From positions 1 through 56,431 of IMG/VR virus record IMGVR_UViG_3300045988_170861: DNA of 56,431 bases, one strand, 5' to 3'. Both the position numbers and the translations under genes were made by a program. The notes under the pieces were generated by a model. That model searched no databases and was not told the DNA's origin. It worked only from the letters and a program-made list of their open reading frames with translations. This document shows positions 15,829 to 36,963 of the stretch, in pieces. The number at the start of each line of letters is the position of its first letter. Position 1 is the first letter of the stretch. The stretch is from a virus.

Positions 15829-15839
15829 ATAAAAATAAA

Positions 15840-15865
15840 GGCTAGGAATATTAATTCCTAGCCTT
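15840..15865. terminator. bidirectional terminator hairpin AGGCTAGGAA-N6-TTCCTAGCCT (copy 1)
   Basis: 10-bp perfect stem flanked by A-run and T-run between convergent genes. Confidence 0.7.
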
Positions 15866-15868
15866 TTA

Positions 15869-16477
15869 TTAATGTAAATATTTCAACATTTGTACAAGAT
15901 ATTTACCTTTAAAATCAACTTCTTCATCAGCATCTAATGGTCTTTTATCAAATGCCACAAATCCATTTCTACTGTAAAATTCCTTTAATTTCTCATTATC
16001 TTCACATTCAAGATAAACTATTTTTCCACCAACAACAGCCTGTACTTTTTCTACTTCTTTACAAGCAAGTTCTAATAATTCATCACCTGTAATCAATGAG
16101 GGAAATCTTGTATTTTTCCCTAATTGAGCTATTAATGGAGCGGTTATAACATATATTTTAAAGTTTGGTTCATAAGTGCCAAATTTAGCAATCCTTTTTC
16201 GCATTGTATTACTAATAGCTTTTGACCTTGATTTTACTGAAAAATTTTTATTAGCAATAGTAAAATAGCCAGCAATTTCATATTTATTTTTATATGAAGC
16301 AAGAACTAATTGTGTTTTTGATAATCCTTTTTTAGAAAATTCTATTGCCTTACAATGCAAAAAATTGTCAACATCTGAATTTAAATTATTTTCAAATGTT
16401 GACAATATATTTTTTGTTTCATCTTCGGTTTTCTTTTTTAAAACATCATCTAATTTTACTAATAAATAACCTTCCAT
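15869..16477 (-). CDS. GNAT-family acetyltransferase, candidate TacT/AtaT-like toxin
   Basis: F.C....F......L..SY.......AGYFT segment and C-terminal GNAT motif B ECEDNEKLKEFYSRNGF; downstream of small partner gene. Confidence 0.5.
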   Translation of the reverse strand: MEGYLLVKLDDVLKKKTEDETKNILSTFENNLNSDVDNFLHCKAIEFSKKGLSKTQLVLASYKNKYEIAGYFTIANKNFSVKSRSKAISNTMRKRIAKFGTYEPNFKIYVITAPLIAQLGKNTRFPSLITGDELLELACKEVEKVQAVVGGKIVYLECEDNEKLKEFYSRNGFVAFDKRPLDADEEVDFKGKYLVQMLKYLH

Positions 16478-16839: not shown

Positions 16840-19800
16840 TTACCAACTTAGAGCTTCTGCTCCTTGATAGTATTCTGGAGTATCTTTTTCTTTTAATCGT
16901 TCTCTTCTATCTTTTTTACGGTCTTTTCTAGCTTTTACTACTGTACTTCTTTTCACTCCTAACTCTTTTAATTTTTTTGCATATGGTGCAAGGTTTTCTT
17001 TTCGCTCTTCTGCATCAAGGTAATCATCAATAGCATTTTGTTTTTCTTTTGATGTCTTATTCATATTGTAATATTTAAGCGATCCTAATTCGGTATCTAT
17101 AGCTTCATTTGTAGATTTAAAGCCCATACCACGAATAATTCTACTCATAGCATCATCATATTTTGTTGTAATTCGTCCTCTTCCGTCCTTGCTTTCACCA
17201 ATAGCAGCGGTATATATATTATACATACCTGGTGATATAGAACGTAACATTCCTAAATTATCACCTTTTGTAGCATTTAAATAAAATTGAGCAATAGTAC
17301 CGCCAGTAGCACCTCCGAATTTTTCCATAGCTTTAATTACAGGGTTTGCATCTTTGTTATAATCTTCTCCTAATCCTGGTATTATATCATTCATACCAAC
17401 ACGAGAACTAATATCTATACCAACGTTACTCAAACCACCATACAATAATGTTCTTATAGCTACTCTTTCTGGCAAACTTGCGTCTTTACTAGCTTCTAAT
17501 AAAAATTGTCTTACTGCTTGTTTTGGACTTACTCCAAATACAGGTTCAGAAATCAAGCCAACAAGAGCCCATAATAAATCTTCTGCTGGTAAACCAAATG
17601 CACCCGCAAAGAAAATCCAACCACCCCAGAATGTAGCCTTTTGTTGCCATGTTGCGTCTTTTTTACCATTAAACGGAATAAAATCACGCATTAATTCAAA
17701 TTGTTTTATAGGATATTTCATAAACTGAAATAACACCTGGCTTATAATGCTTCCACGTCTGAATACGTTTGGAGCATCATTTACGCCATAATCAAAGTTA
17801 GCCTTACGGTTTATATCACGAGCATATTTAACAGCATCATCATGATTTTTATTTAATACATTTCTTGCTTTTCTATATGCTGCAAGAATAGTTGCACAAC
17901 GTGCTAATCTTTCTGAAGCTTTAAATAAAATCATTGAGCGGTCGCCCCATTTACCAAAGCTTGTTTTACTATAACCAGCACCACTATCAAGCCCTAATTC
18001 ATGAAGTACGCCCGTATCTTCCATGGCTTTTCTTTCATCAGGTTTTAATTTTGCTATTCTCTTTTCTGTTTGACTTTCTTTCAAAGCAGCGATATCTTTT
18101 GCAGCCTTCATTACTTCACTAGCAGCTTTTATAGGATTTTTATCTGTTAGTAATGCTGTCGTATTTAAAAGTTGTGTTAAATTAAGCATAGCCGATGACA
18201 CATTCCATACACCGAGTTTTAAAATAGATATTTTATTTGTTATATTACCAGCAACAGATAATGCAGCTCTTTCACCATAACGCGATGTAAATAAATATCT
18301 CCACAGTCTGCGATTATTGAGCCATGTACTTATAGAATTTTCTAATGCTGATGGATTACCGTTTACATCATTGATATAGTCTTTGATATATCTAGCTGTA
18401 CCATTAAGATATTTATTATCCGTACCAATTCTTCCATATATACGTTCAAAATAAGAAATGGCCTTAGGTTTAAATTCTGTTTCTAATGCTTCATATCTAC
18501 AAGCACTATTGAAGTAATGTCTTAACACCCAATTTAAATCTTTATCTTCATATCCTTTAGCACCTGTTCTATGCTGGATATTTCCAAAGAAACGATGTTT
18601 ACTAGAGCGTCTTACCTTGTTTTTATTATCACCTTTTTTATTCAAAAGTTGTTCGACATCATCAATACTCATATCAAATTCATTTGCAATACGTTCATTT
18701 ATTTTTTTATAAGCACCATCGCCAACCATTTCAGCATAATATTCTTCATCAATTCCGACCTCATTAAAATCAAATCGTTTAGGGTGAATTATTAACTTAG
18801 CATTTTCATTGTCTTTTAAATACTGTTCTGCTTTTTTATAGGCTTCTTTTACATTTCTTCCACTATCCACAGTTGTAGTAGTTCCATCATCATTTTGAAC
18901 TACTACATAGAAATCATGGAAAAAGTGTGGTACATATCCTTCTAATTTATTTACTTTTGGAATAGCTTCACGATATTTAACAGTGTATAGCTTGTTATTA
19001 TCAAGGTTTATTTTTTCGCCTTTTGGTGTACTGTAATCATCGCCGTAAATATGAGTGCTTCCATCTTTTTCCGTTACTCCTTCTTTTTCTTCTAAAATCT
19101 GGATAGCCTCATCTTTTCTAAGTGCTTCTAATTGGGCTTTGTTACAAACATCTTGTCTTATATGACTAGGGCGAATTTCATACGTTACCAAAACATCGTC
19201 CTTATCTTTTTCATTTTGAACCTCATCTAAGATATTGACGAATTTATTTTGTTTTAATCCTTCAAGTTTACTTTTAGAAATAATTTCTGATTTTGTTTGT
19301 ATTTGCGTTCTAGCTCTATTTATTAACTCATAGCACTCATTTAAAAGACCTCTAATAGCAATATATGCTTTAGCTGTACCTTTTTTTACTCCTGTTTCTT
19401 CTACGATTTTATCTGCACGTTTTTCAAAATCAGTTATGCCTTTTCCATACTCTTCGCTTAATGCATCACCTTTAAACATCAAATCATTTAATTCCTCTAT
19501 ATCCTTATCTTTGTTTTCAAGATAATCAAACGCTTCATTTAACTTTTTATTATAATAATGACGATTTTTAAGTTGTTTACGCATAGCATTATCAGCATAA
19601 TTAAATACGGGTTTAAATGCTACATACTTTTCGGCTAATCTTTCTGGTGATGATAATATAGATTCAAAACCACCAATATTACCAAGCTCATCAACTTTTT
19701 TATCATGTGCACTTTTACTGTATATCTTTATACGCTCATCTTTTTTATTTTTAGTAAATCTATTTTTAATATTTTTAAAAGCACCTTTAAAAATACCTGT

Positions 19801-22800
19801 AGCACTATCAACACTTTTATCATTGTCAGCAGAAAATTGAGAGTTATATTCGTCATCGTCAAATAAAACGCTCATATAATCCTCACCATATTGACGAATT
19901 AAAGACTCCTCTTCTTCTTTACCTATAGAATAAAAATCTCTATTATCATTAATTTTTATCTCGCCATTTTTTCCACGTTCAAATAGTTTATTTCCCTGAT
20001 TATCAACGATAGATGAAGATAGTTTCATAAAATTTTTAAACATAGATTTCTTCTGTGTATTAGTCAATCCAGCTTTAGGATTGTTTAAGAAATCAGTAAA
20101 TCTATTCATTAAATCACGAATAAATGAAATTAATCTTTTGGCCAAAGATTTATTTTCTTTGCCTAAATTTCTTAAATATTTAACACGTTTAACTACATCA
20201 TAAAAACCATCAGCCATCATTTCTTCAATAATTTTATCTTCAGATAATTTATCACCACGCCAAACAGTTTTACGATAATCCTCAATCTGTTTTGGTGTAA
20301 CTCTTTTCTTCATATCATTTAACATATCATTAAACAAACTAGGATTATTTCTGGCTATCCAATGGAATGTTTCATGCCAAAATACTTTAGGGTGGGACCA
20401 GTTACCATTTACATTAAGATATGTTGTACCGTGAGAGTGCCAACCTCTAAATCCTTTTGGACCTGTAAACCAATATATTGGAGTTCCCATTCTATCGCCG
20501 ATTGCAGATATTTCTTTTTCATAATCGCCAATTTTAACATTATCGAAATCAGCTTTTTCTCTAATATCTACATACTCATCTAATTTTTTATACATATCTT
20601 CAGCAAAAGAATAATTACTAGATTGTTCTTTATCTGTTATTCCTCTAACCGCATTAACAAATTTCTGTCTATCTTCTGATGACGAAAATAAAAAACCTTT
20701 AGCAAATCTACTATATCCACCGCCAGATTGTTTTGCTAATGATTTCAACTGCTGAAAATTCATTTGCTCTTTTACTTTTACACGATATTTTAATTCGCCA
20801 TTTCTAGTATCAGTATGAGTATCTAAAGTAAATTTGTCATCATCAACATTCTCAATACTACCAGAGCTACTATCAGATGAATTTCCTTTTTTTGCTTCTA
20901 TTTCTTTTTTCTTTTCTATCATAGATGTGATTATATCCGCAAATTCGTCAATAGTTTTGTCAGGATTAATTTCATAAGGTGATGTATTTTTTTTAGCAGC
21001 TAATTTATCATTTTTAAAAATATTTATGAAGCCATTGTATTTACCTTTATTATCGACATCATCTTTAGCTAGTGATTTTATTATTGGTTCAATATATTTT
21101 TTTACATTTTGTTTTAAATTTTGAGCACTACTATTTGATACTTCAGGTATCATTAAAAGCCTATTGCGCATTCTTAAAACAATTTTTCTCATATTACCAG
21201 TTGTAGTTTGTAGGTTTGAATCATACCCAAAATAATAATTGTAGATATCTTTTATATTATCTATTTTTTCTTTAGTATCTTTGTTAATGTGTATAGTATC
21301 TACATATTTAACTGGTTTTTCATTAGAGAAATCAAAGTCATCAACATTTATTGATTGTTCAGGCGATGATTTTTCTTTAGTGCTTTTTGTAGTTTTTATA
21401 CCTTCTTTTGTAAGGCTACCAACTATAATATGTTCATTCAAGAAATCAGCGTCATCTTTTTTAGGTGCATTTTCTTCTTTAACTACGTTATCGTCTTCGC
21501 TTTCAACTACGTTATCTGTCATATCCTCATCATAATTGTTATCAACATTATTATCTACACCTATATTTAATTTGCTGTTGATATCAGCTTGTTTAGCTAA
21601 TAATTCATTTAGTTTATCCTCATCAGCAAATTTCTTATTCATTTCTTTTGTTAGTTCTTTTTGTCTTTCGACAGATTGTTTTATTATATCGTTATTAGTT
21701 TCAACTATTTTTTGTGGCATATTATTTACTGTAGCTTCAATACTTCTAATAGAATTTTTAGCTTCATATGACCAATTATTTACCAATGTTAAAATTACTT
21801 CTCCACTCGTTTTTGTAGTATGTCCATAAAGAGTTGTAGAAGTAGGAACAAATCTAGCTTTTAAATCAAATCCAGCTATTTCACCTATTTTTGTATTATT
21901 TTTATTTTGTTCTTTCAATATTGGTTCTGTAATTTTATCTAATGCCAATTGTGCTTTTTTACGGTCAGTAAACAGCCTATTACCAATTTTAATTGAAAAG
22001 TTTTTACCGCTTATATCTTTATGTTGTTTAACATCAAGAGTAGCTTTTTCACTTGCTTTTGTAGCATTTTCAATTTTTCCTGGAAGCTTTTCTAATTCTC
22101 TTTTTATTCTTGATTGCTTCTTATCAAAAGAATTTTTTAAGCTAGTATATTTTCCAACCTCAGCATCAATAAGAACTTTTTCTGCCATTAATGGATTACC
22201 AGAAGCTAACGATTCAGCTTCGGCAAAACTCATTGCTAATACGTCGTTATCCTCAATAATACGTTGTGTAATATCAGCACTCAACGCTTCTGATATGAAA
22301 TGCTGCTTATTCTTTATTTTTTCCCACATATTAGCATCAAAGCTATCTTTTGTTACATACGTATATATCCCGACTTCTTTATTTTCATTTCCTTGTCGTA
22401 AAATACGTCCTTCTCGTTGCTCTATATCACGAGGTCGCCATGGGCAATCTAAATGATGTAATGCAACAAGTTTTTTTTGACAGTTAGTTCCTGCCCCCAT
22501 TTTTTCTGTTGAACCAATCAGCACACGCACTTTACCATTATTTACATTATCAAATAACTCTTGTTTTTTAGCCCTTGTTTTTGCGTCATGAATAAAAGCT
22601 ATTTCATTTTCTTTTATTCCTTTTTCTATTAGTTGTCGTTTTATTTCATGATATACATTAAATTTGCCATTAGATATATCGTTTTCATTATCTGTATCTA
22701 CATCAACATTATCATTATTTTTATCGCTAACTCCTGCTGGTGTAGATAAATCGCAAAATATAAGTTGTGCTCCTTTTGTACTATTACTATCTTTGTATTC

Positions 22801-25800
22801 TTTATAAACATTATCTACAAGTGAAGATATTTTTGTACCTGCTTGTGAAACTGGTACTTCTGGGTTTATTAATCTTACATCAAGACTAGCTTTTCGCAAT
22901 TCTCCTGTAAGTTTTAACATATTATCTTCTGTTGGGTCTACTTTTCTTTGGCGTATCATTTCTGCTCTATTTTTTACATCGTTAGTAATAAAATCTTTTA
23001 ATGCAGATGAAGCTTCTACCGAAACTACAATTCTTTTTCCAGTTTTCATTTTTGGTACTTTTAAATGTAAATCTTCTGGGCGTTTTACATCAGCAAATTT
23101 CCTAAACATTTTAACCATTTCTGGCTTATTAACAAATGCTGAAGCTTTATTTACAGCTCTATAACCATTTCCATCTGGATTTCTTTCTACAGTTTGAGTA
23201 ATATCTACAAATTGATTAGCCCAATTATCAAAATACAATAAATTATTTTTACGTAAATTATCCTCATCAAGATAACGCATCATTGTATACATTTCAGCAA
23301 GTGTATTTGATATCGGTGTACCAGTTGCAAAAACAACACCACGTCCGCCATTAGTTTTAGTTATATATTTTGTTTTTAAATACATATCCATAGAACGTTG
23401 ACTTCCTGTATTTGATAAACCTGCTACACGTTGCATTTTTGTTGTAAAAGATAAATTTTTAAATAAATCTGCTTCATCAACAAATATCTGGTCTATGCCT
23501 AATTCTTCAAAAGGTATAACCATGTCTTTTTTTTCTTCAGCAATATCTCGTTTTAATTTTGTTTTAAGATTAATTATTGATTTTTCAAGGTTACGAGTTA
23601 CCATGCTATCTAACAAACTTTTATCGCCTTGAGAATTTATTTCTCTTATAGCTTGCTCTAGTGAATTTTCTTGTTCTCTATAGAATTCATTATATGCTTC
23701 TGGCGACATTGGAATTCGCTTAAACATATCATGCGAAATAATTATTCCGTCCCAATCTTCTGTAGCTATTTGTGTTAAAATTCTTTGGCGTTGTGCAATT
23801 TTTTCTGATTTTCTTGAACTGTCCTTATCTTTTTTTGTTACTTCTGGTAAGTTTTCAGATGATACTATTAACAATTGAACATTAGGATAAATTTGTCTAA
23901 ATTCATTTGCGAACTGTTGTATCATATGTCCAGGAATAACAAATAATGGTTTTTTACAAATTCCTAAACGACGCATTTCCATTGCTGCTGTTTGCATAGT
24001 CCATGTTTTACCAGCACCAACACTATGAGCAAGTAAAGTATTTGAATTTTGCATTATACGCCATACAGCATCTTTTTGATGTTTTCTTAACGGTGGTGCT
24101 ATTAATGAATATCCTGGTAATATTAAATGTGAACCATCATATTCACGCAACTTCCAATTATTAAAGTTTGTATTGTAATAATCAAGTAATCTTTTTGTTC
24201 GCTTTTCGTCTGACCATATCCAATCATTAAATGCCTTTTTAATATTATCAATCATATTATTTGCAGCTGTTGTAGCATCATCATCAACGACTGATTTATT
24301 CTCACTAATAGTCTTTTTTATGACTGGTCGCTTTTGATTTAATGCTGCTTCTAGCAATTTATCAAAAGACCAACGGTTACTAATACCCCATGTTTCAGTA
24401 AACGAAACATTATTTTTAACCCAAGTATCAGCTTTAACTGCCCACTCACCATTAGCTGGCAAATAAATTACATCAATATAATCACTATTTACACCAACAG
24501 TTTCTGCTGCAAATTGTTTTATATCACTTGCTGGTATCCATGAAGCACCAAGATTAACTGTTATTTCTTCTGGAACAAGGTCAACTGGTTGAACTTTTTT
24601 GAGTGCCTCAATATTTTCTTTATAGCTACTATCTGTTTTCGCTACTTCTTCAGCTTGAGCTAATTTTTCACGTACATTGCCAGACAAATATTCATCTTGT
24701 GTTTCATATAATCCTGTCATCGGATTTTTATAAATAACGCCTTTGAGATTTTCAACTATTTCTTTTGGCTCTTTTCCAACTAAATTAGCCATATAATCAA
24801 TATCTACTTTTCCTTGTTCGCGTAAACTTATAGCTAGTGCGTCAGATGGGCTGTCAGCTTTTGTTGGTTTTTTTACTAATCCAACTGTTCGCATATTAAA
24901 AATATCTGATTTTCCAACAGTAACTTTTTTAGTCTTTTTATCTTCTGAATATCGTTCTATTGCCGATACCATTCCGTATTCTGGGTCAGTTGCAAGATAA
25001 CGAGAATTGTTTTTATTATTCAAATATCCGTTGTTTTCAACAAATGTATCATACAAAGTATTAAGTTCTGTTCTTATCTTTGAAATAGCTGTATCACTTA
25101 TTTTGTTATCAACTTGAGCTGACAATAATTGTTTTAATTTGTTTTTAACATTAACAAAATCTTTAACAAGTTTTTGCTTTGCTTTTGGAACTTCTTCTAA
25201 TTTACCATTTATATTTTGATATACTTTACCACTTTTACCAATAGTATAAGAATTATCTCTAAGCTTATTCGGTGCAAGATATTCCATTGTAGCCTGTTTA
25301 CTATCTTTTACAGGATTTAACAATGGCTCGTAAACATCTTCAGCTATTTTTTTTGTTATTTTTGATAACTTTTTAGGTAAATCAATATCCTTACCACTTA
25401 CATTTAAAGCATCGTTTCCATAACGACCAGAAATTGATGTAATTTTTCCAGCTACCATTTCAGGATTTTTTATATAATATTGGTTCATTTGAAACATACG
25501 TTCATCAACATCAATAAGGTCTGTTTCAATCCAATCTTTAGCATTAATATCTGCTTTTAATGGGTCAATGCGTTTCTTTAATATTATTATGTCAGAAATA
25601 ACATTTGTACCTGTATTATTTTTAAATGCTGTATCAGGTAACCTAATAGCACCTATTAAATCAGCTTTATCTTTTAAATATATACGTAAACGCTTTGAAT
25701 CATGACTATTATCCATAGTTCCTTTAGTAGTTATAAAAACAATCAATCCACCTGGTCTAACTTTATCCAAAGCTTTAGCAAAAAAGTAATTATGAATATC

Positions 25801-28800
25801 AAATTTATATTTATTGAATTTAGCATCGTGTACTCTAAATTGACCAAATGGAACATTACCAATAGCTAAATCAAAGAAGTTATCAGGAGAACTAAGTTTT
25901 TCAAATCCAGTGATATTAATATTAGCTTTTTGATAAAGTTGTGTAGCAATCTGACCACTTATTTTATCCAATTCTACGCCTGTTAAATATGAATTTCCCA
26001 TTATTTTTTCAGGCATAAGACCAAAGAAATTACCTACTCCCATTGATGGTTCAAGTATTTTACCGCCTTTAAATCCTAATCTATCAACAATTTTCCAAAT
26101 AGATTTTACTACATTAGGTGCTGTGTAATATGCAGAAAGCATAGACTCTTTAGCTGCTCTATATTCATCATCGGTTAATAATTCTTTTAATTCATTATTT
26201 GTTTTTTCATCAGAAAATACCGATGTCATTCCGCCCCAGCCACTATATTTTGCTAATGTTTTTTGTTCTGCAGACGTTGCTTTTCTACTTTCTATTTCTA
26301 ATTGTTTTAAAAGTTTTATTGCTTTTATATTATTTTTATATCGTTTTTCTTTACCACCTTCACCGACATTATCTTTATCTGACATTCTATAGTTAATAAG
26401 TGCAGGCTCATTACTTATTTCTTTTACCGTTTCTGTTGTTAAAGGTTCTATCTTTCGTTCATCATTTCCCAAGCCAGCATTTCCGCTTCCATTCTGCGTC
26501 TGGTCAACTCCAGATAATCGTCCGTTGGTGTCTGGTCGTTCATCAACATTTGTGTCAAGTCCTCGTGTTGATTGTCCCTCTCCTCGATTATTTTCTGTAC
26601 TTGTTGACGAAGATTTCCTTTCTTCTTCATTGCTTCCAGTTCCTTCGGATTGTTTACTTCCATTTGTAATATTTCCTCGTCTATTCTGTTCTTCATCGAG
26701 AACGCCATTATCTTTCACCTCATCAGTTTTATTTATTAAATTATTGTCTTTAGCATAATTATATATATTATCTATAACACGAACAATTGAATCAATAGTT
26801 CTACTTTCAACTGCTGAATATCTACCAACGCGAGGATTATTTTCCCATATATCACGGCGATTATCTTGTTCTTCTTTTGTTGTAGCTTTATTTATCCACT
26901 GTTCAACAGCTTCTGCTTCTTTTTCTTTTGCTATTTTATTTAAAGCTGAATACTTGTTACCAGCATATTTTAATGAGTTATCTATTTCATCTAATGTTAC
27001 ATCAAATTTTCTGTTAGAACCAAATAACAGTCTTTGACTTAATTCAGGAGAATCTACACTATCAAAATCTTTTTCTGTATAATTACTTTTTTTAGCATCT
27101 TTTGAAGTTAATGTTATTACATTTCCTCTTAAAAAACCATTATACATACCGATTTTATCATTAAATTTATAGATAATAGGATTTTTTTTGTTGCTTTTTT
27201 GTTCTTTAGTTTTTTCTTCTTTTTCTACATTTTCTTCTTGCGGTTTATTTTCTTCTTTAGTTTTTTCTTCTGTTACGTTAGTTTCCTTTACATCAACCTC
27301 TTTTTCTTTTGTAACTTTATCATTGCTTTGTTTTTCTTTATCTTTTGCTACTGCTTCTTCAATTGCTTGTTTTCTTGCTATTGCTGATTCAGCTAATATG
27401 TCATCAATTCCTAATCCTTTACCTTCTGGAGTAAATACTTTTTCCATCAAGTCTTTATATTTTTTTCTTATCTTAATTAACTTATTTTTAAGTTCTTCTT
27501 TTATATCATGGTCGTTTATAGCTTCTAAATCTTTAAATAATTGTTTTGTATATTCATCACCTTTTTTTACTTCTTCCACTGTAGGGTCTTTGAAGTTTTC
27601 TGGTATTTTTTCTATCTGTTCAGTAGAAGCTTCTTTTTCGCTTGATTTTTTTTGCTCTTTAACTTCTTCTTTATTATTTTTATTTAGTTTGTCTTTTAAG
27701 AAGTTGAAATAATCATGTTCTCCTTTAGTTATTTTTTCTTTTTTATCATCTTTAACTAAATAATAATTACTTCCATCTTTTTGAACATTATAACTGTCAT
27801 CGCTTATAGATTTTTCTATTCTTTCTTGACGAGAAATTTCACTATTAGGAAGTATTTTCTTTAATGTATTTGTAGCTTGTGATTTTTTTAATGATGTATC
27901 TAATGTATTGATATATTGATTAAAATATGGCTCTAAATCAATATTTTGATTTTGTTCAACGTTATTAGAAGGTTCTTCATTTACTATTTGTTCTCGTTGT
28001 TTTGGTGTCTTATATGAACCATAAACTTGCGGTGGTAATGTGAAATTTTTTGCAAACTCAACACCGCTTTTAATTAATTTATTTCTTCTAGCTTCTATTC
28101 TTGTTTGATTAGCGAGCTGAATTGGATTAAGAATTTTATTTTGTAGAATGTTGTTAGCTGTTGATGTTGATTCAACTTTTTGTACATTGTCATTAACAAC
28201 ATTATTTTGCTGTTGTTGTACTTGTTGATTATTAGCTATTTCATTAGCATAATTTTTCATCAAATATTGTTTTGCTTTTTGCTCATCTAAGAATTGATTA
28301 TCTTCATTATTATTTTTAAATAATGATTGTAATTTAGCTATTTCTTCTGGATTTCTACTTGTTTTAACTCGTTGTCTTGCAAACTCACGTAACCTATCAA
28401 GGTTAGGAGTTTCCATTTGAATTTTATTATTATTTGTAGATTTATTTTCGTTTGATGATGGTTTAACTGTATTAGTTGTTTTAATTGATTTAGTTAATGG
28501 TTCATTATTTTGTTTTTGTCTACTATTAACATAATCATAAATATTATCTTCTATACCTGGATAACGTTGTATTAATGCTCTTAAATTATCATCAGTAGCT
28601 TTAAATAGTTTATTTCCTCTTCCATCTATTATTGTTTTATCCTTAAAAAATTCTGTCGTTTCACCATCAGCATTATTAAGCATATCATTAGCAAAATCTA
28701 AAATAGAATTATCAAATTGTACGCTTGCTTCTGCTATATTTGTTTTACCTTTTGTTCCTAATCCACCTTTATATCCTTCTAAATGTAAATGATATCCACT

Positions 28801-30723
28801 GCCTACGTCATGAAATAATACATCTTCGAAAGCTCCTGTGTCCTCAAAACGTTTCCTTACAGCTTGTGCTTGTTCGTCTGTAATTCCGTTTGGTAAAACA
28901 ATATCTACTGCATCACCTTTTGTATGATATGAACCTTCAACGCCTCCAACTTCTCTATTATGTTCAGGTGTTCTATATGCTGATGAAATTGCTGAACCTT
29001 CTGCCATACCCATATCATCAAGAATACCACCAATATATGGTAATGCACTTTTAAATGCAGGAGTAAGTCCTTCTATTTGATTTTCTATTCCTGGTTGAAC
29101 AGATAAATTATACGTATGCATATTATATCTTGATAGTCCATCATCTTGTATTTCACCAGCAATACTTTCAATATTCGCTCCATACTCATTCGGGTCAGAA
29201 GAAAAATATCCATTATCATATAATACACGTGCAAAATCTTGTCCATTTTTTACATTGGATAAATCATAATGGCTTAATGTTTGTTTTGCATACTCATGAG
29301 CAAAATCTTCTATTGAATCAAAACTTTGTAACTCATTTGCTGTAGTATCCGTTCTTTTTAAGCCAGCAAAATTATTAGTTCTGTTAGCATTTCCAGCAGT
29401 AAATCTTCCACTTTCTAATGCCCATTGTGAATAAATATATTTTGTTAAATCTGGTCGTCCTATATCATCAGCAGCGATTTTTGCAGCTTCCCATGCTTTT
29501 TCATTTTCTACGCCTTTTGGTACACCTTGGTCTGTTACATATCTTGTATAAGAAGCAGCTCCGCTCATTGGTGCTCCTGTAAGTGCTCCTATAAGTAGAG
29601 AGTCAAGCTGGTCTTGACTAGCGTTCCAAGGCAACAATCCCCAATCTTTATCTGTTTGTGCATTTGAAATACCTTGCTGTACATACTCTTCTAAACCTTG
29701 TTGAGCCGATGTAGCTAATGTAGAAGGAACAGAACGATATGTCCCTTTAATTAATCTTTTAGGAATGCTTTCTCCTTCTACCGCAAGAGGCTTAAATATC
29801 TTTCCGCCAAGTAATCCATATTCAAGACCATTCGATATTGCCAATGATGGCAAATTCAATCCAGCAGTTTTCCAACCGCGTAAAAACGGATTGTCTAATC
29901 CTTCTTCTTTTGCTTGTCTTACTACATTACCACCTTCAGATAAACTTTCAGGTACAGATGTTATAGAACCTCTTATCATTGTTTCTAAAGCATCGTCGCT
30001 TAATCCACGTAAAAAAGGTAATTTTTTTAATGTCTGTGCTGCTGATGTTACTTTTGTAGCTGGTGCTAAGAATGAAGATGGATATAATGCAGCCATTGAG
30101 CCGACCATATTACCAACATCATAAGTCAAGCCAGATGGATTAGTTAAGTAATCTAGCGATAAAATATTATCTGCTCCACTATACTCTCTATCTCTTTTAT
30201 TTAATTTAGAAATAGCATTTAATTCATTTCCTGTTTTTTCTGCTCCGAATATATCAGCAATCCCACCAGCTACAGAACTTGCTCCACTAACAGCACCTTT
30301 ACCAAAATTATAATTATATTCAGCAGCAGTTGGTGCATATGTTTGTTGCATTGCGTGTTCAACTTCATTTGCACCAGCCAATCCACTAAATAATAAACTG
30401 ATAGGCGACTGATTAATTCCTAAATGTTTCAATTCTCCAAACGGCATTGCTCGTTCTAAACCTGCTACAGTATCTTTAAGTTTTTGTGGAATATATTCAT
30501 TATAAGTATCAGATATATTGTTTGCTACCCAATCATAATTATTAGAAATTCCATTTGCTACATATTCAGCATTATTAGAAATACCGCTGGCTATATCACC
30601 AGCGGTATCAAATATTTTATCTAATGTAGACTCATTTTCTTCTTGTCGTCTTTTTTCTTCTTCTGCGTTATATGTTCCAACAGGGCCTGTTGCTTTTATA
30701 AAGTTCTGTAAAAATTTAGACAT
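16840..30723 (-). CDS. giant polyvalent virion/ejection protein (4627 aa): glucosaminidase + M15 peptidase + N6A-MTase + SNF2 helicase + HExxH zincin + hydrophobic C-terminus
   Basis: Motifs YSQWALESGRF...NNFAGLK; SAYRTPEHNRE...H.H; ILEPSMGVGNFFG and NVPFG; AHSVGAGKT, FVDEAD, TGTPISN, QREGRILRQG; FWHETFHW. Confidence 0.85.
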   Translation of the reverse strand: MSKFLQNFIKATGPVGTYNAEEEKRRQEENESTLDKIFDTAGDIASGISNNAEYVANGISNNYDWVANNISDTYNEYIPQKLKDTVAGLERAMPFGELKHLGINQSPISLLFSGLAGANEVEHAMQQTYAPTAAEYNYNFGKGAVSGASSVAGGIADIFGAEKTGNELNAISKLNKRDREYSGADNILSLDYLTNPSGLTYDVGNMVGSMAALYPSSFLAPATKVTSAAQTLKKLPFLRGLSDDALETMIRGSITSVPESLSEGGNVVRQAKEEGLDNPFLRGWKTAGLNLPSLAISNGLEYGLLGGKIFKPLAVEGESIPKRLIKGTYRSVPSTLATSAQQGLEEYVQQGISNAQTDKDWGLLPWNASQDQLDSLLIGALTGAPMSGAASYTRYVTDQGVPKGVENEKAWEAAKIAADDIGRPDLTKYIYSQWALESGRFTAGNANRTNNFAGLKRTDTTANELQSFDSIEDFAHEYAKQTLSHYDLSNVKNGQDFARVLYDNGYFSSDPNEYGANIESIAGEIQDDGLSRYNMHTYNLSVQPGIENQIEGLTPAFKSALPYIGGILDDMGMAEGSAISSAYRTPEHNREVGGVEGSYHTKGDAVDIVLPNGITDEQAQAVRKRFEDTGAFEDVLFHDVGSGYHLHLEGYKGGLGTKGKTNIAEASVQFDNSILDFANDMLNNADGETTEFFKDKTIIDGRGNKLFKATDDNLRALIQRYPGIEDNIYDYVNSRQKQNNEPLTKSIKTTNTVKPSSNENKSTNNNKIQMETPNLDRLREFARQRVKTSRNPEEIAKLQSLFKNNNEDNQFLDEQKAKQYLMKNYANEIANNQQVQQQQNNVVNDNVQKVESTSTANNILQNKILNPIQLANQTRIEARRNKLIKSGVEFAKNFTLPPQVYGSYKTPKQREQIVNEEPSNNVEQNQNIDLEPYFNQYINTLDTSLKKSQATNTLKKILPNSEISRQERIEKSISDDSYNVQKDGSNYYLVKDDKKEKITKGEHDYFNFLKDKLNKNNKEEVKEQKKSSEKEASTEQIEKIPENFKDPTVEEVKKGDEYTKQLFKDLEAINDHDIKEELKNKLIKIRKKYKDLMEKVFTPEGKGLGIDDILAESAIARKQAIEEAVAKDKEKQSNDKVTKEKEVDVKETNVTEEKTKEENKPQEENVEKEEKTKEQKSNKKNPIIYKFNDKIGMYNGFLRGNVITLTSKDAKKSNYTEKDFDSVDSPELSQRLLFGSNRKFDVTLDEIDNSLKYAGNKYSALNKIAKEKEAEAVEQWINKATTKEEQDNRRDIWENNPRVGRYSAVESRTIDSIVRVIDNIYNYAKDNNLINKTDEVKDNGVLDEEQNRRGNITNGSKQSEGTGSNEEERKSSSTSTENNRGEGQSTRGLDTNVDERPDTNGRLSGVDQTQNGSGNAGLGNDERKIEPLTTETVKEISNEPALINYRMSDKDNVGEGGKEKRYKNNIKAIKLLKQLEIESRKATSAEQKTLAKYSGWGGMTSVFSDEKTNNELKELLTDDEYRAAKESMLSAYYTAPNVVKSIWKIVDRLGFKGGKILEPSMGVGNFFGLMPEKIMGNSYLTGVELDKISGQIATQLYQKANINITGFEKLSSPDNFFDLAIGNVPFGQFRVHDAKFNKYKFDIHNYFFAKALDKVRPGGLIVFITTKGTMDNSHDSKRLRIYLKDKADLIGAIRLPDTAFKNNTGTNVISDIIILKKRIDPLKADINAKDWIETDLIDVDERMFQMNQYYIKNPEMVAGKITSISGRYGNDALNVSGKDIDLPKKLSKITKKIAEDVYEPLLNPVKDSKQATMEYLAPNKLRDNSYTIGKSGKVYQNINGKLEEVPKAKQKLVKDFVNVKNKLKQLLSAQVDNKISDTAISKIRTELNTLYDTFVENNGYLNNKNNSRYLATDPEYGMVSAIERYSEDKKTKKVTVGKSDIFNMRTVGLVKKPTKADSPSDALAISLREQGKVDIDYMANLVGKEPKEIVENLKGVIYKNPMTGLYETQDEYLSGNVREKLAQAEEVAKTDSSYKENIEALKKVQPVDLVPEEITVNLGASWIPASDIKQFAAETVGVNSDYIDVIYLPANGEWAVKADTWVKNNVSFTETWGISNRWSFDKLLEAALNQKRPVIKKTISENKSVVDDDATTAANNMIDNIKKAFNDWIWSDEKRTKRLLDYYNTNFNNWKLREYDGSHLILPGYSLIAPPLRKHQKDAVWRIMQNSNTLLAHSVGAGKTWTMQTAAMEMRRLGICKKPLFVIPGHMIQQFANEFRQIYPNVQLLIVSSENLPEVTKKDKDSSRKSEKIAQRQRILTQIATEDWDGIIISHDMFKRIPMSPEAYNEFYREQENSLEQAIREINSQGDKSLLDSMVTRNLEKSIINLKTKLKRDIAEEKKDMVIPFEELGIDQIFVDEADLFKNLSFTTKMQRVAGLSNTGSQRSMDMYLKTKYITKTNGGRGVVFATGTPISNTLAEMYTMMRYLDEDNLRKNNLLYFDNWANQFVDITQTVERNPDGNGYRAVNKASAFVNKPEMVKMFRKFADVKRPEDLHLKVPKMKTGKRIVVSVEASSALKDFITNDVKNRAEMIRQRKVDPTEDNMLKLTGELRKASLDVRLINPEVPVSQAGTKISSLVDNVYKEYKDSNSTKGAQLIFCDLSTPAGVSDKNNDNVDVDTDNENDISNGKFNVYHEIKRQLIEKGIKENEIAFIHDAKTRAKKQELFDNVNNGKVRVLIGSTEKMGAGTNCQKKLVALHHLDCPWRPRDIEQREGRILRQGNENKEVGIYTYVTKDSFDANMWEKIKNKQHFISEALSADITQRIIEDNDVLAMSFAEAESLASGNPLMAEKVLIDAEVGKYTSLKNSFDKKQSRIKRELEKLPGKIENATKASEKATLDVKQHKDISGKNFSIKIGNRLFTDRKKAQLALDKITEPILKEQNKNNTKIGEIAGFDLKARFVPTSTTLYGHTTKTSGEVILTLVNNWSYEAKNSIRSIEATVNNMPQKIVETNNDIIKQSVERQKELTKEMNKKFADEDKLNELLAKQADINSKLNIGVDNNVDNNYDEDMTDNVVESEDDNVVKEENAPKKDDADFLNEHIIVGSLTKEGIKTTKSTKEKSSPEQSINVDDFDFSNEKPVKYVDTIHINKDTKEKIDNIKDIYNYYFGYDSNLQTTTGNMRKIVLRMRNRLLMIPEVSNSSAQNLKQNVKKYIEPIIKSLAKDDVDNKGKYNGFINIFKNDKLAAKKNTSPYEINPDKTIDEFADIITSMIEKKKEIEAKKGNSSDSSSGSIENVDDDKFTLDTHTDTRNGELKYRVKVKEQMNFQQLKSLAKQSGGGYSRFAKGFLFSSSEDRQKFVNAVRGITDKEQSSNYSFAEDMYKKLDEYVDIREKADFDNVKIGDYEKEISAIGDRMGTPIYWFTGPKGFRGWHSHGTTYLNVNGNWSHPKVFWHETFHWIARNNPSLFNDMLNDMKKRVTPKQIEDYRKTVWRGDKLSEDKIIEEMMADGFYDVVKRVKYLRNLGKENKSLAKRLISFIRDLMNRFTDFLNNPKAGLTNTQKKSMFKNFMKLSSSIVDNQGNKLFERGKNGEIKINDNRDFYSIGKEEEESLIRQYGEDYMSVLFDDDEYNSQFSADNDKSVDSATGIFKGAFKNIKNRFTKNKKDERIKIYSKSAHDKKVDELGNIGGFESILSSPERLAEKYVAFKPVFNYADNAMRKQLKNRHYYNKKLNEAFDYLENKDKDIEELNDLMFKGDALSEEYGKGITDFEKRADKIVEETGVKKGTAKAYIAIRGLLNECYELINRARTQIQTKSEIISKSKLEGLKQNKFVNILDEVQNEKDKDDVLVTYEIRPSHIRQDVCNKAQLEALRKDEAIQILEEKEGVTEKDGSTHIYGDDYSTPKGEKINLDNNKLYTVKYREAIPKVNKLEGYVPHFFHDFYVVVQNDDGTTTTVDSGRNVKEAYKKAEQYLKDNENAKLIIHPKRFDFNEVGIDEEYYAEMVGDGAYKKINERIANEFDMSIDDVEQLLNKKGDNKNKVRRSSKHRFFGNIQHRTGAKGYEDKDLNWVLRHYFNSACRYEALETEFKPKAISYFERIYGRIGTDNKYLNGTARYIKDYINDVNGNPSALENSISTWLNNRRLWRYLFTSRYGERAALSVAGNITNKISILKLGVWNVSSAMLNLTQLLNTTALLTDKNPIKAASEVMKAAKDIAALKESQTEKRIAKLKPDERKAMEDTGVLHELGLDSGAGYSKTSFGKWGDRSMILFKASERLARCATILAAYRKARNVLNKNHDDAVKYARDINRKANFDYGVNDAPNVFRRGSIISQVLFQFMKYPIKQFELMRDFIPFNGKKDATWQQKATFWGGWIFFAGAFGLPAEDLLWALVGLISEPVFGVSPKQAVRQFLLEASKDASLPERVAIRTLLYGGLSNVGIDISSRVGMNDIIPGLGEDYNKDANPVIKAMEKFGGATGGTIAQFYLNATKGDNLGMLRSISPGMYNIYTAAIGESKDGRGRITTKYDDAMSRIIRGMGFKSTNEAIDTELGSLKYYNMNKTSKEKQNAIDDYLDAEERKENLAPYAKKLKELGVKRSTVVKARKDRKKDRRERLKEKDTPEYYQGAEALSW

Positions 30724-30741
30724 AATATAATCTCCTTATTT

Positions 30742-36468: not shown

Positions 36469-36721
36469 TAATCACCGCCAAATCAATATTTTCAATTTCT
36501 GCACGTTCTTCTAATACTTTTAATTTAGCTCTCATATAGATTAATTGTTCATATAAAAGCTCATAACTGCATTTAGGCTTAAATGGTAATGTTCCTGCTT
36601 TATAAGCTTTTAACATTTTTGCTAAACCTTCTGCTCTTTTTTTATCTTGATGATATTCAGCTTGAAATCTTTCTTTAAAATCAGCACTTAACATTAATTT
36701 AACAGTATCTTTTAATTCCAT
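36452..36721 (-). CDS. hypothetical protein
   Basis: ORF. Confidence 0.45.
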   Translation of the reverse strand: MELKDTVKLMLSADFKERFQAEYHQDKKRAEGLAKMLKAYKAGTLPFKPKCSYELLYEQLIYMRAKLKVLEERAEIENIDLAVINDESN

Positions 36722-36723
36722 AA

Positions 36724-36825: not shown

Positions 36826-36827
36826 AA

Positions 36828-36944: not shown

Positions 36945-36963
36945 TATTAATCCTTCTTTCTTT

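What the first reader, a model, noticed from the sequence alone, without database searches (positions are those of the whole stretch)
22236..26346. DarB-like methyltransferase-helicase core inside the giant protein, separate from the early Dam gene
The N6A-MTase motif I (EPSMGVGNFFG) and motif IV (NVPFG), at nt ~25566..26346, are followed by all SF2/SNF2 helicase motifs (AHSVGAGKT, FVDEAD, TGTPISN, QREGRILRQG) at nt ~22236..24126. This architecture parallels phage P1 DarB, a packaged anti-restriction methylase-helicase. The phage also encodes a stand-alone Dam at 11813..12628, so it carries two adenine methylases, one virion-borne and one expressed early.
Basis: partly seen in the sequence, partly recalled or inferred. 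Interest (0 to 1): 0.75.

Follow-up and report, generated by a model that had tools for sequence, protein, structure and literature searches.

The report
DarB-like methylase-helicase cassette in giant phage protein
The motifs are real and form a well-known DarB-type DNA-methylase/helicase module inside a 4,627-residue phage particle protein; the less ordinary point is that near-identical sister phages carry a different methylase/helicase pair at the same place in the gene.

Summary
Observation confirmed. The catalytic residues are invariant across 63 homologues. The region aligns colinearly with phage P1 DarB (MTase E=1e-27; helicase lobes 4e-16 and 8e-13). It matches PHROG 10089, "DarB-like antirestriction". 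An AlphaFold model (pLDDT 88) matches gamma-class N6-adenine DNA methyltransferases. The stand-alone MTase at 11813..12628 is a D12-class enzyme with an intact DPPY motif.

This is a new member of a known kind: the LPD36–MTase–SNF2 "dyad" of polyvalent proteins (Iyer 2017), as found in the giant virion proteins of Bcep22, PEp14 and SopranoGao-type phages. The host here is probably Megamonas (Negativicutes). Virion packaging, methylation and anti-restriction are inferred, not shown.

New here: the dyad sits in a ~7.4 kb in-frame cassette (about 20847..28239). Phages 91–98% identical in the flanking parts of the gene carry an unrelated helicase→NPPY-MTase dyad instead. Four scaffold clades each contain two dyad types, and the same alternation occurs between cultured phages SopranoGao and Parlo. 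All 15 giant proteins examined carry some MTase plus SF2-helicase pair. The genome also strongly avoids GATC and CCGG. Interest is moderate.

The parts
16840..30723 (-). Giant ORF of 4627 aa, a polyvalent virion/ejection-type protein. It is the last large gene of the minus-strand structural operon.
   Evidence: ORF list and translation. RBS AAGGAG at 30732-30737; the start codon lies 18 nt after the stop of the upstream ORF. Upstream on the same strand are TerS, TerL, portal, major head protein, tail, holin and endolysin genes.
20847..28239 (-). In-frame exchangeable cassette (aa ~829-3292) that contains the DarB-type dyad. Both edges lie in polar low-complexity linkers.
   Evidence: blastn against L003, L004 and L015 gives 91-98% identity up to nt 20846 (20617-20843 for L004 and L015). 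It gives 78-92% identity from nt 28006/28240 onward, and nothing in between.
25564..26427 (-). LPD36-like helical domain (GWGG, aa 1495-1498) plus a gamma-class N6-adenine DNA methyltransferase. It carries the T-x-P cap at aa 1534-1536, motif I EPSMGVGNFFG and motif IV NVPFG.
   Evidence: BLASTP against P1 DarB gives E=1e-27. The AlphaFold model has pLDDT 88.4. Foldseek's top hits are M.BseCI, BsaXI, type I HsdM, CamA and M.TaqI, E about 1e-10. A profile search of PDB hits TaqI and HsdM.
24232..25563 (-). Region of about 440 aa between the MTase and the helicase, conserved in the family. Its function is unknown; it may be a target-recognition or DNA-binding region.
   Evidence: It has many invariant columns in alignment A1. 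It is 39-41% identical in L005 and L011. A beta-rich sub-domain follows the MTase core in the model.
22018..24231 (-). SWI2/SNF2-type SF2 ATPase/translocase with motif I AHSVGAGKT, motif II FVDEAD, motif III TGTPISN and motif VI QREGRILRQG.
   Evidence: Pfam ResIII and Helicase_C. BLASTP against DarB gives 4e-16 and 8e-13. A profile search of PDB hits ISWI, INO80 and RapA. The C-lobe hits DISARM DrmD.
29149..29442 (-). Glucosaminidase (peptidoglycan hydrolase) domain, aa 428-525.
   Evidence: Pfam PF01832, E=1.1e-8, above its cut-off.
28846..28992 (-). Peptidase_M15_3 (cell-wall peptidase) domain, aa 578-626.
   Evidence: Pfam PF08291, E=1.4e-9. L003 and L004 have an SLT transglycosylase at this place instead.
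16843..19026 (-). Conserved C-terminal scaffold (aa ~3900-4627). It carries the motifs GYVPHFFHDF and HRFFGN and one hydrophobic segment at aa 4370-4388.
   Evidence: It is 92-98% identical in L003, L004 and L015, and 32-38% identical in three further clades. The motifs are conserved in all clades. BLASTP against SopranoGao gp06 gives E=9e-10. An HMM of the scaffold hits gp06 3982-4203, E=1e-12 at Z=1e6.
11813..12628 (+). Stand-alone D12-class (Dam-family) N6-adenine DNA methyltransferase of 271 aa, with FFGSG and DPPY motifs.
   Evidence: Pfam PF02086 E=1.2e-28. TIGR00571 scores 93.4 bits, below its cut-off of 114.85. PADLOC MTase_II E=8e-76. Translation.
15837..15866 (-). Terminator-like hairpin (13-bp stem plus a T run). 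It closes the minus-strand operon after the giant gene and the acetyltransferase gene (15869..16477).
   Evidence: The acetyltransferase matches phrog_1758.

Best explanation
Nucleotides ~22018-26427 encode a DarB-type module. It consists of an LPD36-like helical domain, a gamma-class N6-adenine DNA methyltransferase and a SWI2/SNF2-type ATPase. This is the 'DNA methylase-helicase dyad' of polyvalent proteins.

The module is in-frame cargo inside a 4,627-aa protein of a temperate, probably podovirus-like phage of Megamonas/Selenomonadales. The protein also carries N-terminal cell-wall hydrolases and a conserved C-terminal scaffold.

The likely course of events is inferred, not shown:
1. The giant protein is made late and packaged into the particle.
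2. It is ejected with the DNA, and the hydrolase domains open the wall.
3. The ATPase tracks along the entering double-stranded DNA while the methylase modifies adenines.
4. The genome thereby escapes host restriction that cannot be escaped by avoiding sites. By analogy with P1 DarB this would be type I systems.

The separate D12-class methylase, made inside the infected cell, and the strong avoidance of GATC and CCGG are independent layers of the same defence.

The dyad is an exchangeable cassette. Sister phages carry a non-orthologous helicase→MTase dyad or an MTase→Strawberry-notch dyad at the same place. What is conserved is therefore 'a methylase plus a translocase', not this particular family.
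For: Shown here:
- The motifs are present and the catalytic residues are invariant in 63 homologues.
- The region is colinear with P1 DarB in three blocks.
- It matches PHROG 10089 'DarB-like antirestriction', 1660 bits.
- The structure model has pLDDT 88, and its fold matches are all N6-adenine DNA MTases.
- A profile search of PDB hits ISWI, INO80 and RapA for the helicase and TaqI and HsdM for the MTase.
- The LPD36 GxGU motif is present as GWGG, and the T-x-P cap is conserved (the defining features are in PMC5512222).
- The gene is the last large gene of the structural operon, with a tight junction to the upstream ORF and a terminator downstream.
- N-terminal Glucosaminidase and M15 peptidase domains are present.
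- The whole protein is colinear with SopranoGao gp06, both in the core (37% identity over 1700 aa) and in the C-terminus (E=9e-10).
- The core is 32% identical to Bcep22 gp75 over 1700 aa.
- All 15 related giant proteins whose central region was recovered hold an MTase plus an SF2 helicase: seven DarB-type, seven helicase→MTase and one MTase→Strawberry notch.
- GATC occurs 17 times against 125-140 expected, and CCGG 0 times against 23.

From the literature:
- P1 DarB is a head protein that protects against EcoB and EcoK (PMC9024508; PMC12810830).
- JC1 gp69, a 4515-aa DarB-like protein, was found in purified virions with 51 unique peptides (PMC9144972).
- The translocate-and-methylate model is proposed in PMC5512222.
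Against: - No experiment exists on this phage. Packaging, ejection, methylation, ATPase activity and any anti-restriction effect are all inferred.
- In none of the papers read here is DNA methylation by DarB shown; those that mention it present it as a prediction or model.
- P1 needs DarA, Hdf, DdrA, DdrB and Ulx to package DarB. None has a homologue here, so packaging must work differently.
- The C-terminal scaffold is only distantly related to that of cultured phages. A database-wide tblastn gives E from 1e-5 to 8e-4, and the scaffold HMM does not hit Bcep22 gp75.
- The literal PLxRFG motif is absent.
- The sequence specificity of the methylase is unknown.
Confidence: 0.62

Rival explanations
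1. Genome-entry motor. The SNF2 ATPase, delivered by the ejected giant protein, mainly pulls the phage DNA into the cell, as RNA polymerases do for T7 and N4. The methylase is secondary or serves as a DNA clamp.
For: A helicase is present in all 15 related giant proteins. The protein has the build of an ejection protein, with wall hydrolases at the N-terminus and a conserved C-terminal part containing a hydrophobic segment. No tape-measure or sheath genes were found among the ORFs scanned, which suggests a short-tailed phage that needs an internalisation mechanism.
Against: A methylase with intact catalytic motifs (NVPF or NPPY) accompanies the helicase in every cassette type. A pure motor would not require that. 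The same dyad is common on conjugative elements that transfer DNA by other means: the best hit P0001 carries an ArdC-N domain (PMC5512222). The P1 darB phenotype described in the papers read is restriction sensitivity.
Confidence: 0.13
2. Protection without methylation. The module binds the incoming DNA and travels along it, physically blocking or displacing type I restriction complexes. The methylase fold serves only for DNA or base recognition.
For: DarB protection acts in cis on the DNA it is ejected with (PMC5512222). The papers read here describe Dar proteins as binding or protecting the DNA, and none reports a demonstrated methylation mark.
Against: The SAM-binding motif I (ExxxGxGxF) and the catalytic N-x-P-F are invariant across 63 sequences that are only 30-50% identical. 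That is unexpected for a non-catalytic fold. The replacement cassettes keep canonical NPPY and LEPSAGHG motifs.
Confidence: 0.13
3. The module acts in the producing cell, not after ejection. The giant protein is made late and methylates progeny DNA before or during packaging. Its presence in the particle, if any, is incidental or purely structural.
For: The gene lies in the late structural operon, so the enzyme coexists with replicating and packaging DNA.
Against: The phage already has a soluble D12 methylase for that job. Fusion to wall hydrolases and a conserved scaffold makes sense only for a delivered protein. Homologues are found in purified virions.
Confidence: 0.08
4. Not anti-restriction at all. 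The dyad marks or remodels DNA for another purpose, such as discriminating self from host DNA, controlling early transcription, or countering BREX/DISARM-like systems.
For: The helicase C-lobe resembles DISARM DrmD and Dpd helicases. Iyer et al. also mention discrimination of invasive from host DNA as a possibility.
Against: The DrmD similarity is weak (50 bits against a cut-off of 610) and reflects shared SNF2 ancestry. No evidence in this window points to such a role.
Confidence: 0.04

Closest known systems
Phage P1 DarB (2255 aa; defence against restriction, head-internal protein)
   Same: The domain order is the same: LPD36-like region, gamma-class N6A MTase with GNVPFG, then an SNF2-type helicase. 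Similarity is significant and colinear in three blocks: 29% identity with E=1e-27, then 4e-16 and 8e-13.
   Different: DarB is a free-standing protein packaged through an N-terminal signal, with help from DarA, Hdf, DdrA, DdrB and Ulx. None of those has a homologue here. Here the module is internal (aa 1433-2902) to a protein twice as long, which also has wall hydrolases and a C-terminal scaffold. P1 is a myovirus of E. coli. This is a Negativicutes phage in which no sheath or tape-measure gene was detected.
Giant 'DarB-like antirestriction / PLxRFG' virion proteins of Bcep22, JC1, PEp14, PBC5, Atu_ph08, VvAW1 and SopranoGao (PHROG 10089)
   Same: All are single ORFs of more than 4000 aa at the end of the virion module, with an N-terminal wall hydrolase and a central DarB dyad. 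The core is 37% identical to SopranoGao gp06 and 32% to Bcep22 gp75 over about 1700 aa. The C-terminus is related to SopranoGao gp06 (E=9e-10 by BLASTP; 1e-12 by HMM). Atu_ph08 likewise has a hydrolase followed by a peptidase at its N-terminus. JC1 gp69 is proven to be virion-associated.
   Different: The host phylum differs (Negativicutes against Proteobacteria) and the genome is about 30% GC. The literal PLxRFG motif is replaced by PHFFHD. No scaffold similarity to Bcep22 gp75 was detectable. The lysis genes sit in the middle of the operon rather than after the giant gene.
LPD36–adenine MTase–SWI2/SNF2 module of polyvalent proteins (Iyer, Burroughs, Anand, de Souza, Aravind 2017, PMC5512222)
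   Same: All the sequence features they list are present: the GxGU motif, a T-P-type cap, an N-P/V-P-F/Y motif, and an SNF2-clade ATPase on the C-terminal side. The best database hits (53% identity) are polyvalent proteins carrying ArdC-N and MPTase domains.
   Different: In the passages read, that paper describes the module's spread and its shuffling across architectures. It does not describe allelic replacement between near-identical phages by a reverse-order dyad, which is what is seen here.
Helicase→MTase giant proteins (PHROG 10691/5143), e.g. Serratia phage Parlo gp81, Klebsiella vB_KpnP_ZX1 and Pseudomonas Skulduggery, also annotated 'DarB-like'
   Same: They occupy the same slot in the same kind of scaffold. 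Sister phages L003, L004 and L015 of this window carry this type.
   Different: The domain order is reversed, with the helicase (GTGTGKT, DESH, QCEGRIYRVG) before the MTase (TPEP, LEPSAGHG, NPPYG). There is only faint MTase-level similarity to the window's cassette (25% identity, E=1e-5). The window does not carry this type.

Membership tests
DarB-type methylase-helicase dyad (P1 DarB / polyvalent-protein LPD36-MTase-SNF2 module) | Gamma-class N6-adenine MTase: the SAM motif I precedes the catalytic N-[PV]-P-[FY] motif, within an EcoKI/TaqI-like fold. | tested here: met
   EPSMGVGNFFG lies at aa 1558 and NVPFG at aa 1623, and both are invariant in 63 homologues. The AlphaFold model (pLDDT 88.4) matches M.BseCI, BsaXI, HsdM, CamA and TaqI. 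A profile search hits TaqI and HsdM.
DarB-type methylase-helicase dyad (P1 DarB / polyvalent-protein LPD36-MTase-SNF2 module) | An N-terminal helical LPD36 domain with a GxGU motif, and a T-P cap helix before the MTase core. | tested here: met
   GWGG lies at aa 1495-1498; G1495 and G1497 are invariant. T1534 is invariant and P1536 is present in 61 of 63 sequences. In this branch the cap reads T-x-P (TAP here, TSP in most), against TP in DarB. The model shows helices before the Rossmann core.
DarB-type methylase-helicase dyad (P1 DarB / polyvalent-protein LPD36-MTase-SNF2 module) | An SF2 / SWI2-SNF2-clade ATPase fused C-terminal to the MTase, with motifs I, II, III and VI intact. | tested here: met
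   Pfam ResIII and Helicase_C. The motifs GAGKT, DEAD, TGTP and QREGRILRQG have conserved key residues. A profile search hits ISWI, INO80 and RapA.
DarB-type methylase-helicase dyad (P1 DarB / polyvalent-protein LPD36-MTase-SNF2 module) | Significant, colinear sequence similarity to P1 DarB itself. | tested here: met
   Three ordered BLASTP blocks with E=1e-27, 4e-16 and 8e-13.
DarB-type methylase-helicase dyad (P1 DarB / polyvalent-protein LPD36-MTase-SNF2 module) | Packaged in the virion and released into the cell with the DNA. | not testable with these tools
   There is only indirect support: the gene's position in the structural operon and proteomics of the homologue JC1 gp69.
DarB-type methylase-helicase dyad (P1 DarB / polyvalent-protein LPD36-MTase-SNF2 module) | [quoted passage not shown] | not testable with these tools
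   This needs plating assays. It is known only for P1.
P1 Dar system (multi-protein) | The accessory proteins DarA, Hdf, DdrA, DdrB and Ulx are encoded alongside DarB. | tested here: not met
   tblastn of the five P1 proteins against the window gave no hit below E=0.79. The phage therefore has a DarB-like module but not a P1-type Dar system.
Bcep22/PEp14-type giant virion protein ('PLxRFG protein', PHROG 10089) | A single ORF of more than 3500 aa at the distal end of the virion module, with an N-terminal peptidoglycan hydrolase and a central DarB dyad. | tested here: met
   The ORF encodes 4627 aa. Glucosaminidase and M15 domains are present. phrog_10089 matches aa 1117-3351. The gene order is shown.
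Bcep22/PEp14-type giant virion protein ('PLxRFG protein', PHROG 10089) | The PLxRFG motif or domain in the C-terminal third. | tested here: not met
   No PLxRFG string is present and there is no NCBIfam hit. By eye, a comparable place carries GY[IV]PHFFHD, which is conserved in all four Negativicutes clades. That equivalence was not established by alignment.
Bcep22/PEp14-type giant virion protein ('PLxRFG protein', PHROG 10089) | A homologous C-terminal scaffold. | tested here: inconclusive
   It is related to SopranoGao gp06 (BLASTP E=9e-10; HMM E=1e-12 over gp06 3982-4203) and to Parlo gp81 (E=2e-6). It was not detected against Bcep22 gp75 and shows only weakly in a database-wide tblastn.
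Dam (GATC-specific orphan adenine methylase), for the stand-alone gene 11813..12628 | A D12-class N6A MTase fold with FxGxG and DPPY motifs. | tested here: met
   PF02086 E=1.2e-28, 101 bits against a cut-off of 22. FFGSG and DPPY are visible in the translation.
Dam (GATC-specific orphan adenine methylase), for the stand-alone gene 11813..12628 | Reaches the curated Dam-family score, with GATC specificity. | tested here: not met
   TIGR00571 scores 93.4 bits, below its cut-off of 114.85. The E. coli-type equivalog scores 43.7 against 441. Specificity is not testable here. GATC is strongly depleted in the genome.

The most novel reading that the evidence does not exclude
The methylase-helicase dyad of these giant particle proteins is a balanced polymorphism. 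At least three non-orthologous dyads are kept as interchangeable in-frame alleles within each phage lineage: MTase→SNF2 ('DarB-type'), helicase→NPPY-MTase, and MTase→Strawberry notch.

The proposed reason is that each writes a different methylation pattern or evades a different host system. One allele would protect against some R-M systems but expose the phage to methylation-dependent or other defences, so that host diversity maintains all of them. The window carries a DarB-type allele whose nearest known relative is only 52-53% identical, set in a scaffold 98% identical to a phage with the other allele.

If this is right, these phages are natural near-isogenic pairs for finally working out what DarB-type modules do.
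Probability: 0.3. Interest if true: 0.65.

Novelty: new member of a known kind. Interest (0 to 1): 0.4.

Why it matters
**The finding as given.** It extends a known anti-restriction architecture, the DarB-type dyad inside a giant virion protein, to prophages of gut Negativicutes (Megamonas). That is useful for annotation but not surprising.

**The cassette alternation.** In the papers read here, no biochemical mechanism of DarB has been demonstrated. The alternation gives a handle on it. Phages with near-identical scaffolds but different dyads, including the cultured phages SopranoGao and Parlo, allow direct comparison of methylation patterns and host ranges. The strict retention of 'a methylase plus a translocase' argues that both activities are needed together.

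**Annotation.** Current annotation lumps two unrelated modules under the single name 'DarB-like'.

Tried and rejected
- **Megablast of the region against 50,697 phage records:** no match. The phage has no close cultured relative.
- **phmmer of the whole protein against PDB sequences:** nothing. Only a profile search and a fold search reached solved structures.
- **Protein search with the full 4627-aa query:** timed out. It was repeated with the 1470-aa core.
- **First literature search ('DarB' or 'PLxRFG'):** swamped by darbepoetin and the unrelated B. subtilis DarB.
- **Key papers not held:** Gill et al. 2011 (PMC3187461) and Piya et al. 2017 (PMC6011833) are not in the library. Their content is cited only second-hand.
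- **Is the HExxH at aa 3450 the conserved zincin peptidase of polyvalent proteins?** It is found only in the window's own clade, is not aligned in the other three clades, has no Pfam hit and shows no significant similarity to SopranoGao's HExxH region. This is left open.
- **Is the C-terminal scaffold a PLxRFG domain?** The literal motif is absent and NCBIfam is silent.
- **P1 Dar accessory proteins:** none found.
- **tRNAs:** none.
- **Promoter scan near the 3' end of the gene:** no more sites than in shuffled sequence, so it is uninformative.

Full report
**1. What is in the sequence**

The finding lies inside one uninterrupted ORF, 16840..30723 on the minus strand, encoding 4627 aa.
- MTase motif I, EPSMGVGNFFG: aa 1558-1568 (nt 26020-26052)
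- MTase motif IV, NVPFG: aa 1623-1627 (nt 25843-25857)
- Walker A, AHSVGAGKT: aa 2232-2240
- FVDEAD: aa 2414-2419
- TGTPISN: aa 2467-2473
- QREGRILRQG: aa 2769-2778

I aligned the region with 60 database homologues, P1 DarB and SopranoGao gp06. The catalytic residues are invariant: N, P, F and G of NVPFG; G, G, K and T of Walker A; D and E of motif II; T and P of motif III; Q, R, G, R, R and G of motif VI. Pfam calls ResIII and Helicase_C above their cut-offs, and also a Glucosaminidase domain (aa 428-525) and a Peptidase_M15_3 domain (aa 578-626) near the N-terminus.

**2. Identity of the module**

BLASTP against P1 DarB, translated from NC_005856, gives three ordered blocks:
- aa 1433-1718 to DarB 21-275: 29% identity, E=1e-27
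- aa 2165-2485 to DarB 788-1123: E=4e-16
- aa 2730-2902 to DarB 1470-1648: E=8e-13

The best PHROG is phrog_10089, 'DarB-like antirestriction', at 1660 bits over aa 1117-3351. An AlphaFold2 model of aa 1433-1830, built on 62 sequences, has mean pLDDT 88.4. Its Foldseek matches in the PDB are all N6-adenine DNA methyltransferases of the gamma/EcoKI-TaqI kind: M.BseCI, BsaXI, type I HsdM, CamA, M.TaqI and M.EcoKI, with E about 1e-10. A profile of the whole module finds ISWI, INO80 and RapA for the helicase and TaqI and HsdM for the methylase among solved structures. No DarB-type protein was found among solved structures by sequence.

Iyer et al. 2017 use several sequence features to define the 'DNA methylase-helicase dyad' of polyvalent proteins. 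They are all present:
- an N-terminal LPD36 domain with GxGU (here GWGG, aa 1495-1498)
- a T-P-type cap (here T-A-P)
- an N-P/V-P-F/Y motif
- an SNF2-clade ATPase on the C-terminal side

**3. Context**

The window is a temperate phage. The minus strand carries the integrase (52932..54143), TerS, TerL, portal, major head protein, tail proteins, holin, endolysin and three unknown ORFs. The giant gene follows, then an acetyltransferase and a strong terminator-like hairpin at 15837-15866. The giant gene has an AAGGAG ribosome-binding site and starts 18 nt after the preceding ORF. No tape-measure or sheath gene was detected.

The plus strand carries RecE, RecT, a TubZ-like tubulin, a replication initiator, a radical-SAM-like protein and the stand-alone methylase at 11813..12628. 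That methylase is a D12-class enzyme (PF02086, E=1.2e-28) with FFGSG and DPPY motifs. It scores below NCBIfam's Dam cut-off, 93.4 against 114.85 bits. The statement 'two adenine methylases' is therefore correct. 'Dam' in the sense of GATC specificity is unproven, and 'expressed early' rests on position alone.

The closest relatives come from a Megamonas MAG, other Selenomonadales and Acidaminococcus. The host is thus very probably a Negativicute.

**4. How it relates to what is known**

tblastn places the core at about 37-42% identity in uncultured gut phages and in giant genes annotated 'DarB-like antirestriction', 'PLxRFG protein' or 'DNA methylase'. The phages include VvAW1, SopranoGao, LASTA, PEp14, PBC5, Atu_ph08 and POI1126.

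The whole protein is colinear with SopranoGao gp06 (4369 aa). The core is 37% identical over 1700 aa, and the C-terminus matches at E=9e-10. A scaffold HMM hits gp06 3982-4203 at E=1e-12. The core is 32% identical to Bcep22 gp75, but scaffold similarity to gp75 was not detected.

From the literature:
- JC1 gp69 (4515 aa) was found in CsCl-purified virions with 51 unique peptides. Lessieviruses, like this phage, lack DarA-type helpers.
- Atu_ph08's giant protein also has a wall hydrolase followed by a peptidase at its N-terminus.
- P1 DarB is a head protein of about 40 copies, packaged through an N-terminal signal, and needed against EcoB and EcoK.

The five P1 accessory proteins have no homologue in the window. 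The literal PLxRFG motif is absent. By eye, a comparable place carries GY[IV]PHFFHD, followed by RHRFxGN, and both are conserved in four clades. That positional equivalence was not established by alignment.

More than 8000 database proteins share the core, the best at 53% identity. The module is ubiquitous, and this copy is a divergent one. The finding is therefore a new member of a known kind.

**5.

I searched with the C-terminal 1028 aa alone and recovered 17 loci.

*Closest relatives.* Three of the loci are 91-98% identical to the window at the DNA level: L003 from an isolate genome, L004, and L015 from a Megamonas MAG. The identity runs from downstream of the gene up to nt 20846 (20617-20843 for L004 and L015). 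It resumes at 78-92% from nt 28006/28240 to the start of the gene. There is no similarity across the ~7.4 kb in between.

*What they carry instead.* Their giant proteins (4348, 3944 and at least 4361 aa) carry a different dyad in the reverse order. The helicase comes first, with GTGTGKT, DESH and QCEGRIYRVG. The methylase follows, with TPEP, LEPSAGHG and NPPYG. This dyad belongs to PHROG 10691/5143. L003 also has an LPD3 domain. L003 and L004 have an SLT transglycosylase where the window and L015 have Glucosaminidase plus M15.

*Four clades, each with two dyad types.* The C-terminal scaffolds fall into four clades. Identity is 78-98% within a clade and 32-38% between clades. Members marked D have the DarB-type dyad and members marked H have the helicase→MTase dyad:
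- window (D) with L003, L004 and L015 (H)
- L005, L007 and L009 (D) with L006 (H)
- L011 (D) with L010, L012 and L017 (H)
- L014 (D) with L013, which has a third type: an MTase followed by a Strawberry-notch helicase (AAA_34 plus Helicase_C_4)

DNA comparisons within clades show the same picture of conserved flanks and a replaced centre. All 15 giant proteins whose central region was recovered hold a methylase plus an SF2 helicase.

*The same alternation in cultured phages.* Serratia phage Parlo gp81 (H-type) shares 47% N-terminal and 67% C-terminal identity with Klebsiella phage SopranoGao gp06 (D-type), with the centre replaced. Both are annotated 'DarB-like'.

*Origin of the window's allele.* The nearest D-type relative of the window's core is only 52% identical in IMG/VR. 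The donor of this allele has therefore not been sampled.

*Where the breakpoints lie.* The cassette edges lie in long polar, low-complexity stretches. These would tolerate in-frame recombination.

**6. Mechanism**

*Shown:* homology, intact catalytic motifs, the fold, the operon position, the wall-hydrolase fusion and the cassette pattern.

*Inferred:* the protein is packaged and ejected. The hydrolases help cross the wall. The SNF2 motor tracks the entering duplex while the methylase modifies adenines, which protects the genome in cis. This is the model proposed for DarB-type dyads.

A methylase with intact motifs always accompanies the helicase, whichever family supplies them. That argues that methylation, not translocation alone, is selected. 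It weighs against a pure DNA-import motor and against a purely steric shield, although neither is excluded. In none of the papers I could read is methylation by DarB demonstrated.

The genome also shows strong passive avoidance. GATC occurs 17 times against 125-140 expected, with a single site in the whole 13.9-kb giant gene. CCGG occurs 0 times against 23 expected. GGCC and GCGC are at about 0.4 of expectation. This phage therefore lives under heavy type II pressure and handles it by avoiding sites. An enzymatic system would be most useful against type I or type III enzymes, whose sites cannot easily be avoided. That last step is inference.

**7. Verdict**

- Novelty is low for the module itself: it is a new member of a known kind.
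- Interest is moderate. The cassette alternation was not described in the papers I searched. It provides natural near-isogenic pairs for solving the open question of what DarB-type modules actually do.

Noticed in passing
window 20847..28239; loci L003-L017: The DarB-type dyad is an in-frame cassette. Phages 91-98% identical in the flanking parts of the giant gene carry a reverse-order helicase→NPPY-MTase dyad instead. Four scaffold clades each contain two dyad types.
   Followed up: yes
L013:1901-12700: This giant protein carries a third dyad type, an MTase followed by a Strawberry-notch-like helicase (Pfam AAA_34 E=1.5e-118 and Helicase_C_4 E=4.6e-86). Its scaffold is 78% identical to that of L014, which carries the DarB-type dyad.
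   Followed up: partly
L021 (Serratia phage Parlo gp81) against L002 (Klebsiella phage SopranoGao gp06): The same alternation occurs in cultured phages. Their scaffolds are 47% (N-terminal) and 67% (C-terminal) identical, while the centre is H-type in Parlo and D-type in SopranoGao. Both are annotated 'DarB-like antirestriction' although the modules are unrelated.
   Followed up: partly
whole window: There is strong avoidance of short palindromes. GATC occurs 17 times against 125-140 expected, with only one site (17081) inside the 13.9-kb giant gene. CCGG occurs 0 times against 23 expected. GGCC and GCGC are at about 0.4 of expectation. This looks like a restriction-avoidance signature, and it is notable next to a Dam-family methylase gene.
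   Followed up: partly
window 28846..29442 against L003/L004 aa 387-487: The N-terminal lytic domain is also exchangeable. The window and L015 have Glucosaminidase plus M15 peptidase. L003 and L004 have an SLT lytic transglycosylase in an otherwise 78%-identical N-terminal part.
   Followed up: partly
window 20362..20376 (aa 3450, WHETFHW): An HExxH motif lies in a segment that is 92-93% conserved in L003, L004 and L015 but is not alignable in the other three clades. It may be a zincin-like peptidase that could process the giant protein. It has no Pfam hit. SopranoGao gp06 has an HExxH (aa 3286) at a comparable position, but the similarity is not significant.
   Followed up: partly
window 18900..18960 and 18583..18597: Two motifs, GY[IV]PHFFHD[FYW] and RHRF[FYM]GN, are conserved across all four Negativicutes scaffold clades despite only 32-38% overall identity. 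By eye the first sits at a place comparable to the PLxRFG motif of proteobacterial giant proteins.
   Followed up: partly
window 5153..6175 (+): A TubZ-like tubulin gene is present (Pfam Tubulin E=4e-15 and TubZ_C_3 E=1.7e-7), in a phage that also has an integrase (52932..54143). This may be a segregation or positioning system, as in some Clostridium and Bacillus phages and plasmids.
   Followed up: no
window 10623..11564 (+): A 313-aa ORF matches phrog_9298 'radical SAM domain protein' (E=1e-87) but has no Pfam or NCBIfam hit. It lies directly upstream of the D12 methylase. The pair is absent from L003 and present in L004.
   Followed up: no
window 15869..16477 (-): An acetyltransferase gene (phrog_1758, E=8e-47) lies directly downstream of the giant gene and before the operon terminator. 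It is absent from L004. Acyl-CoA N-acyltransferase genes are also annotated in the virion modules of Bcep22, SopranoGao and Parlo. Homology between these and the window's gene was not tested.
   Followed up: no
window 35881..37437 (-): The holin and endolysin genes sit in the middle of the structural operon, between the neck/tail genes and the tail-fibre, unknown and giant genes. In Bcep22, SopranoGao, Parlo and PEp14 they lie after the giant gene.
   Followed up: no
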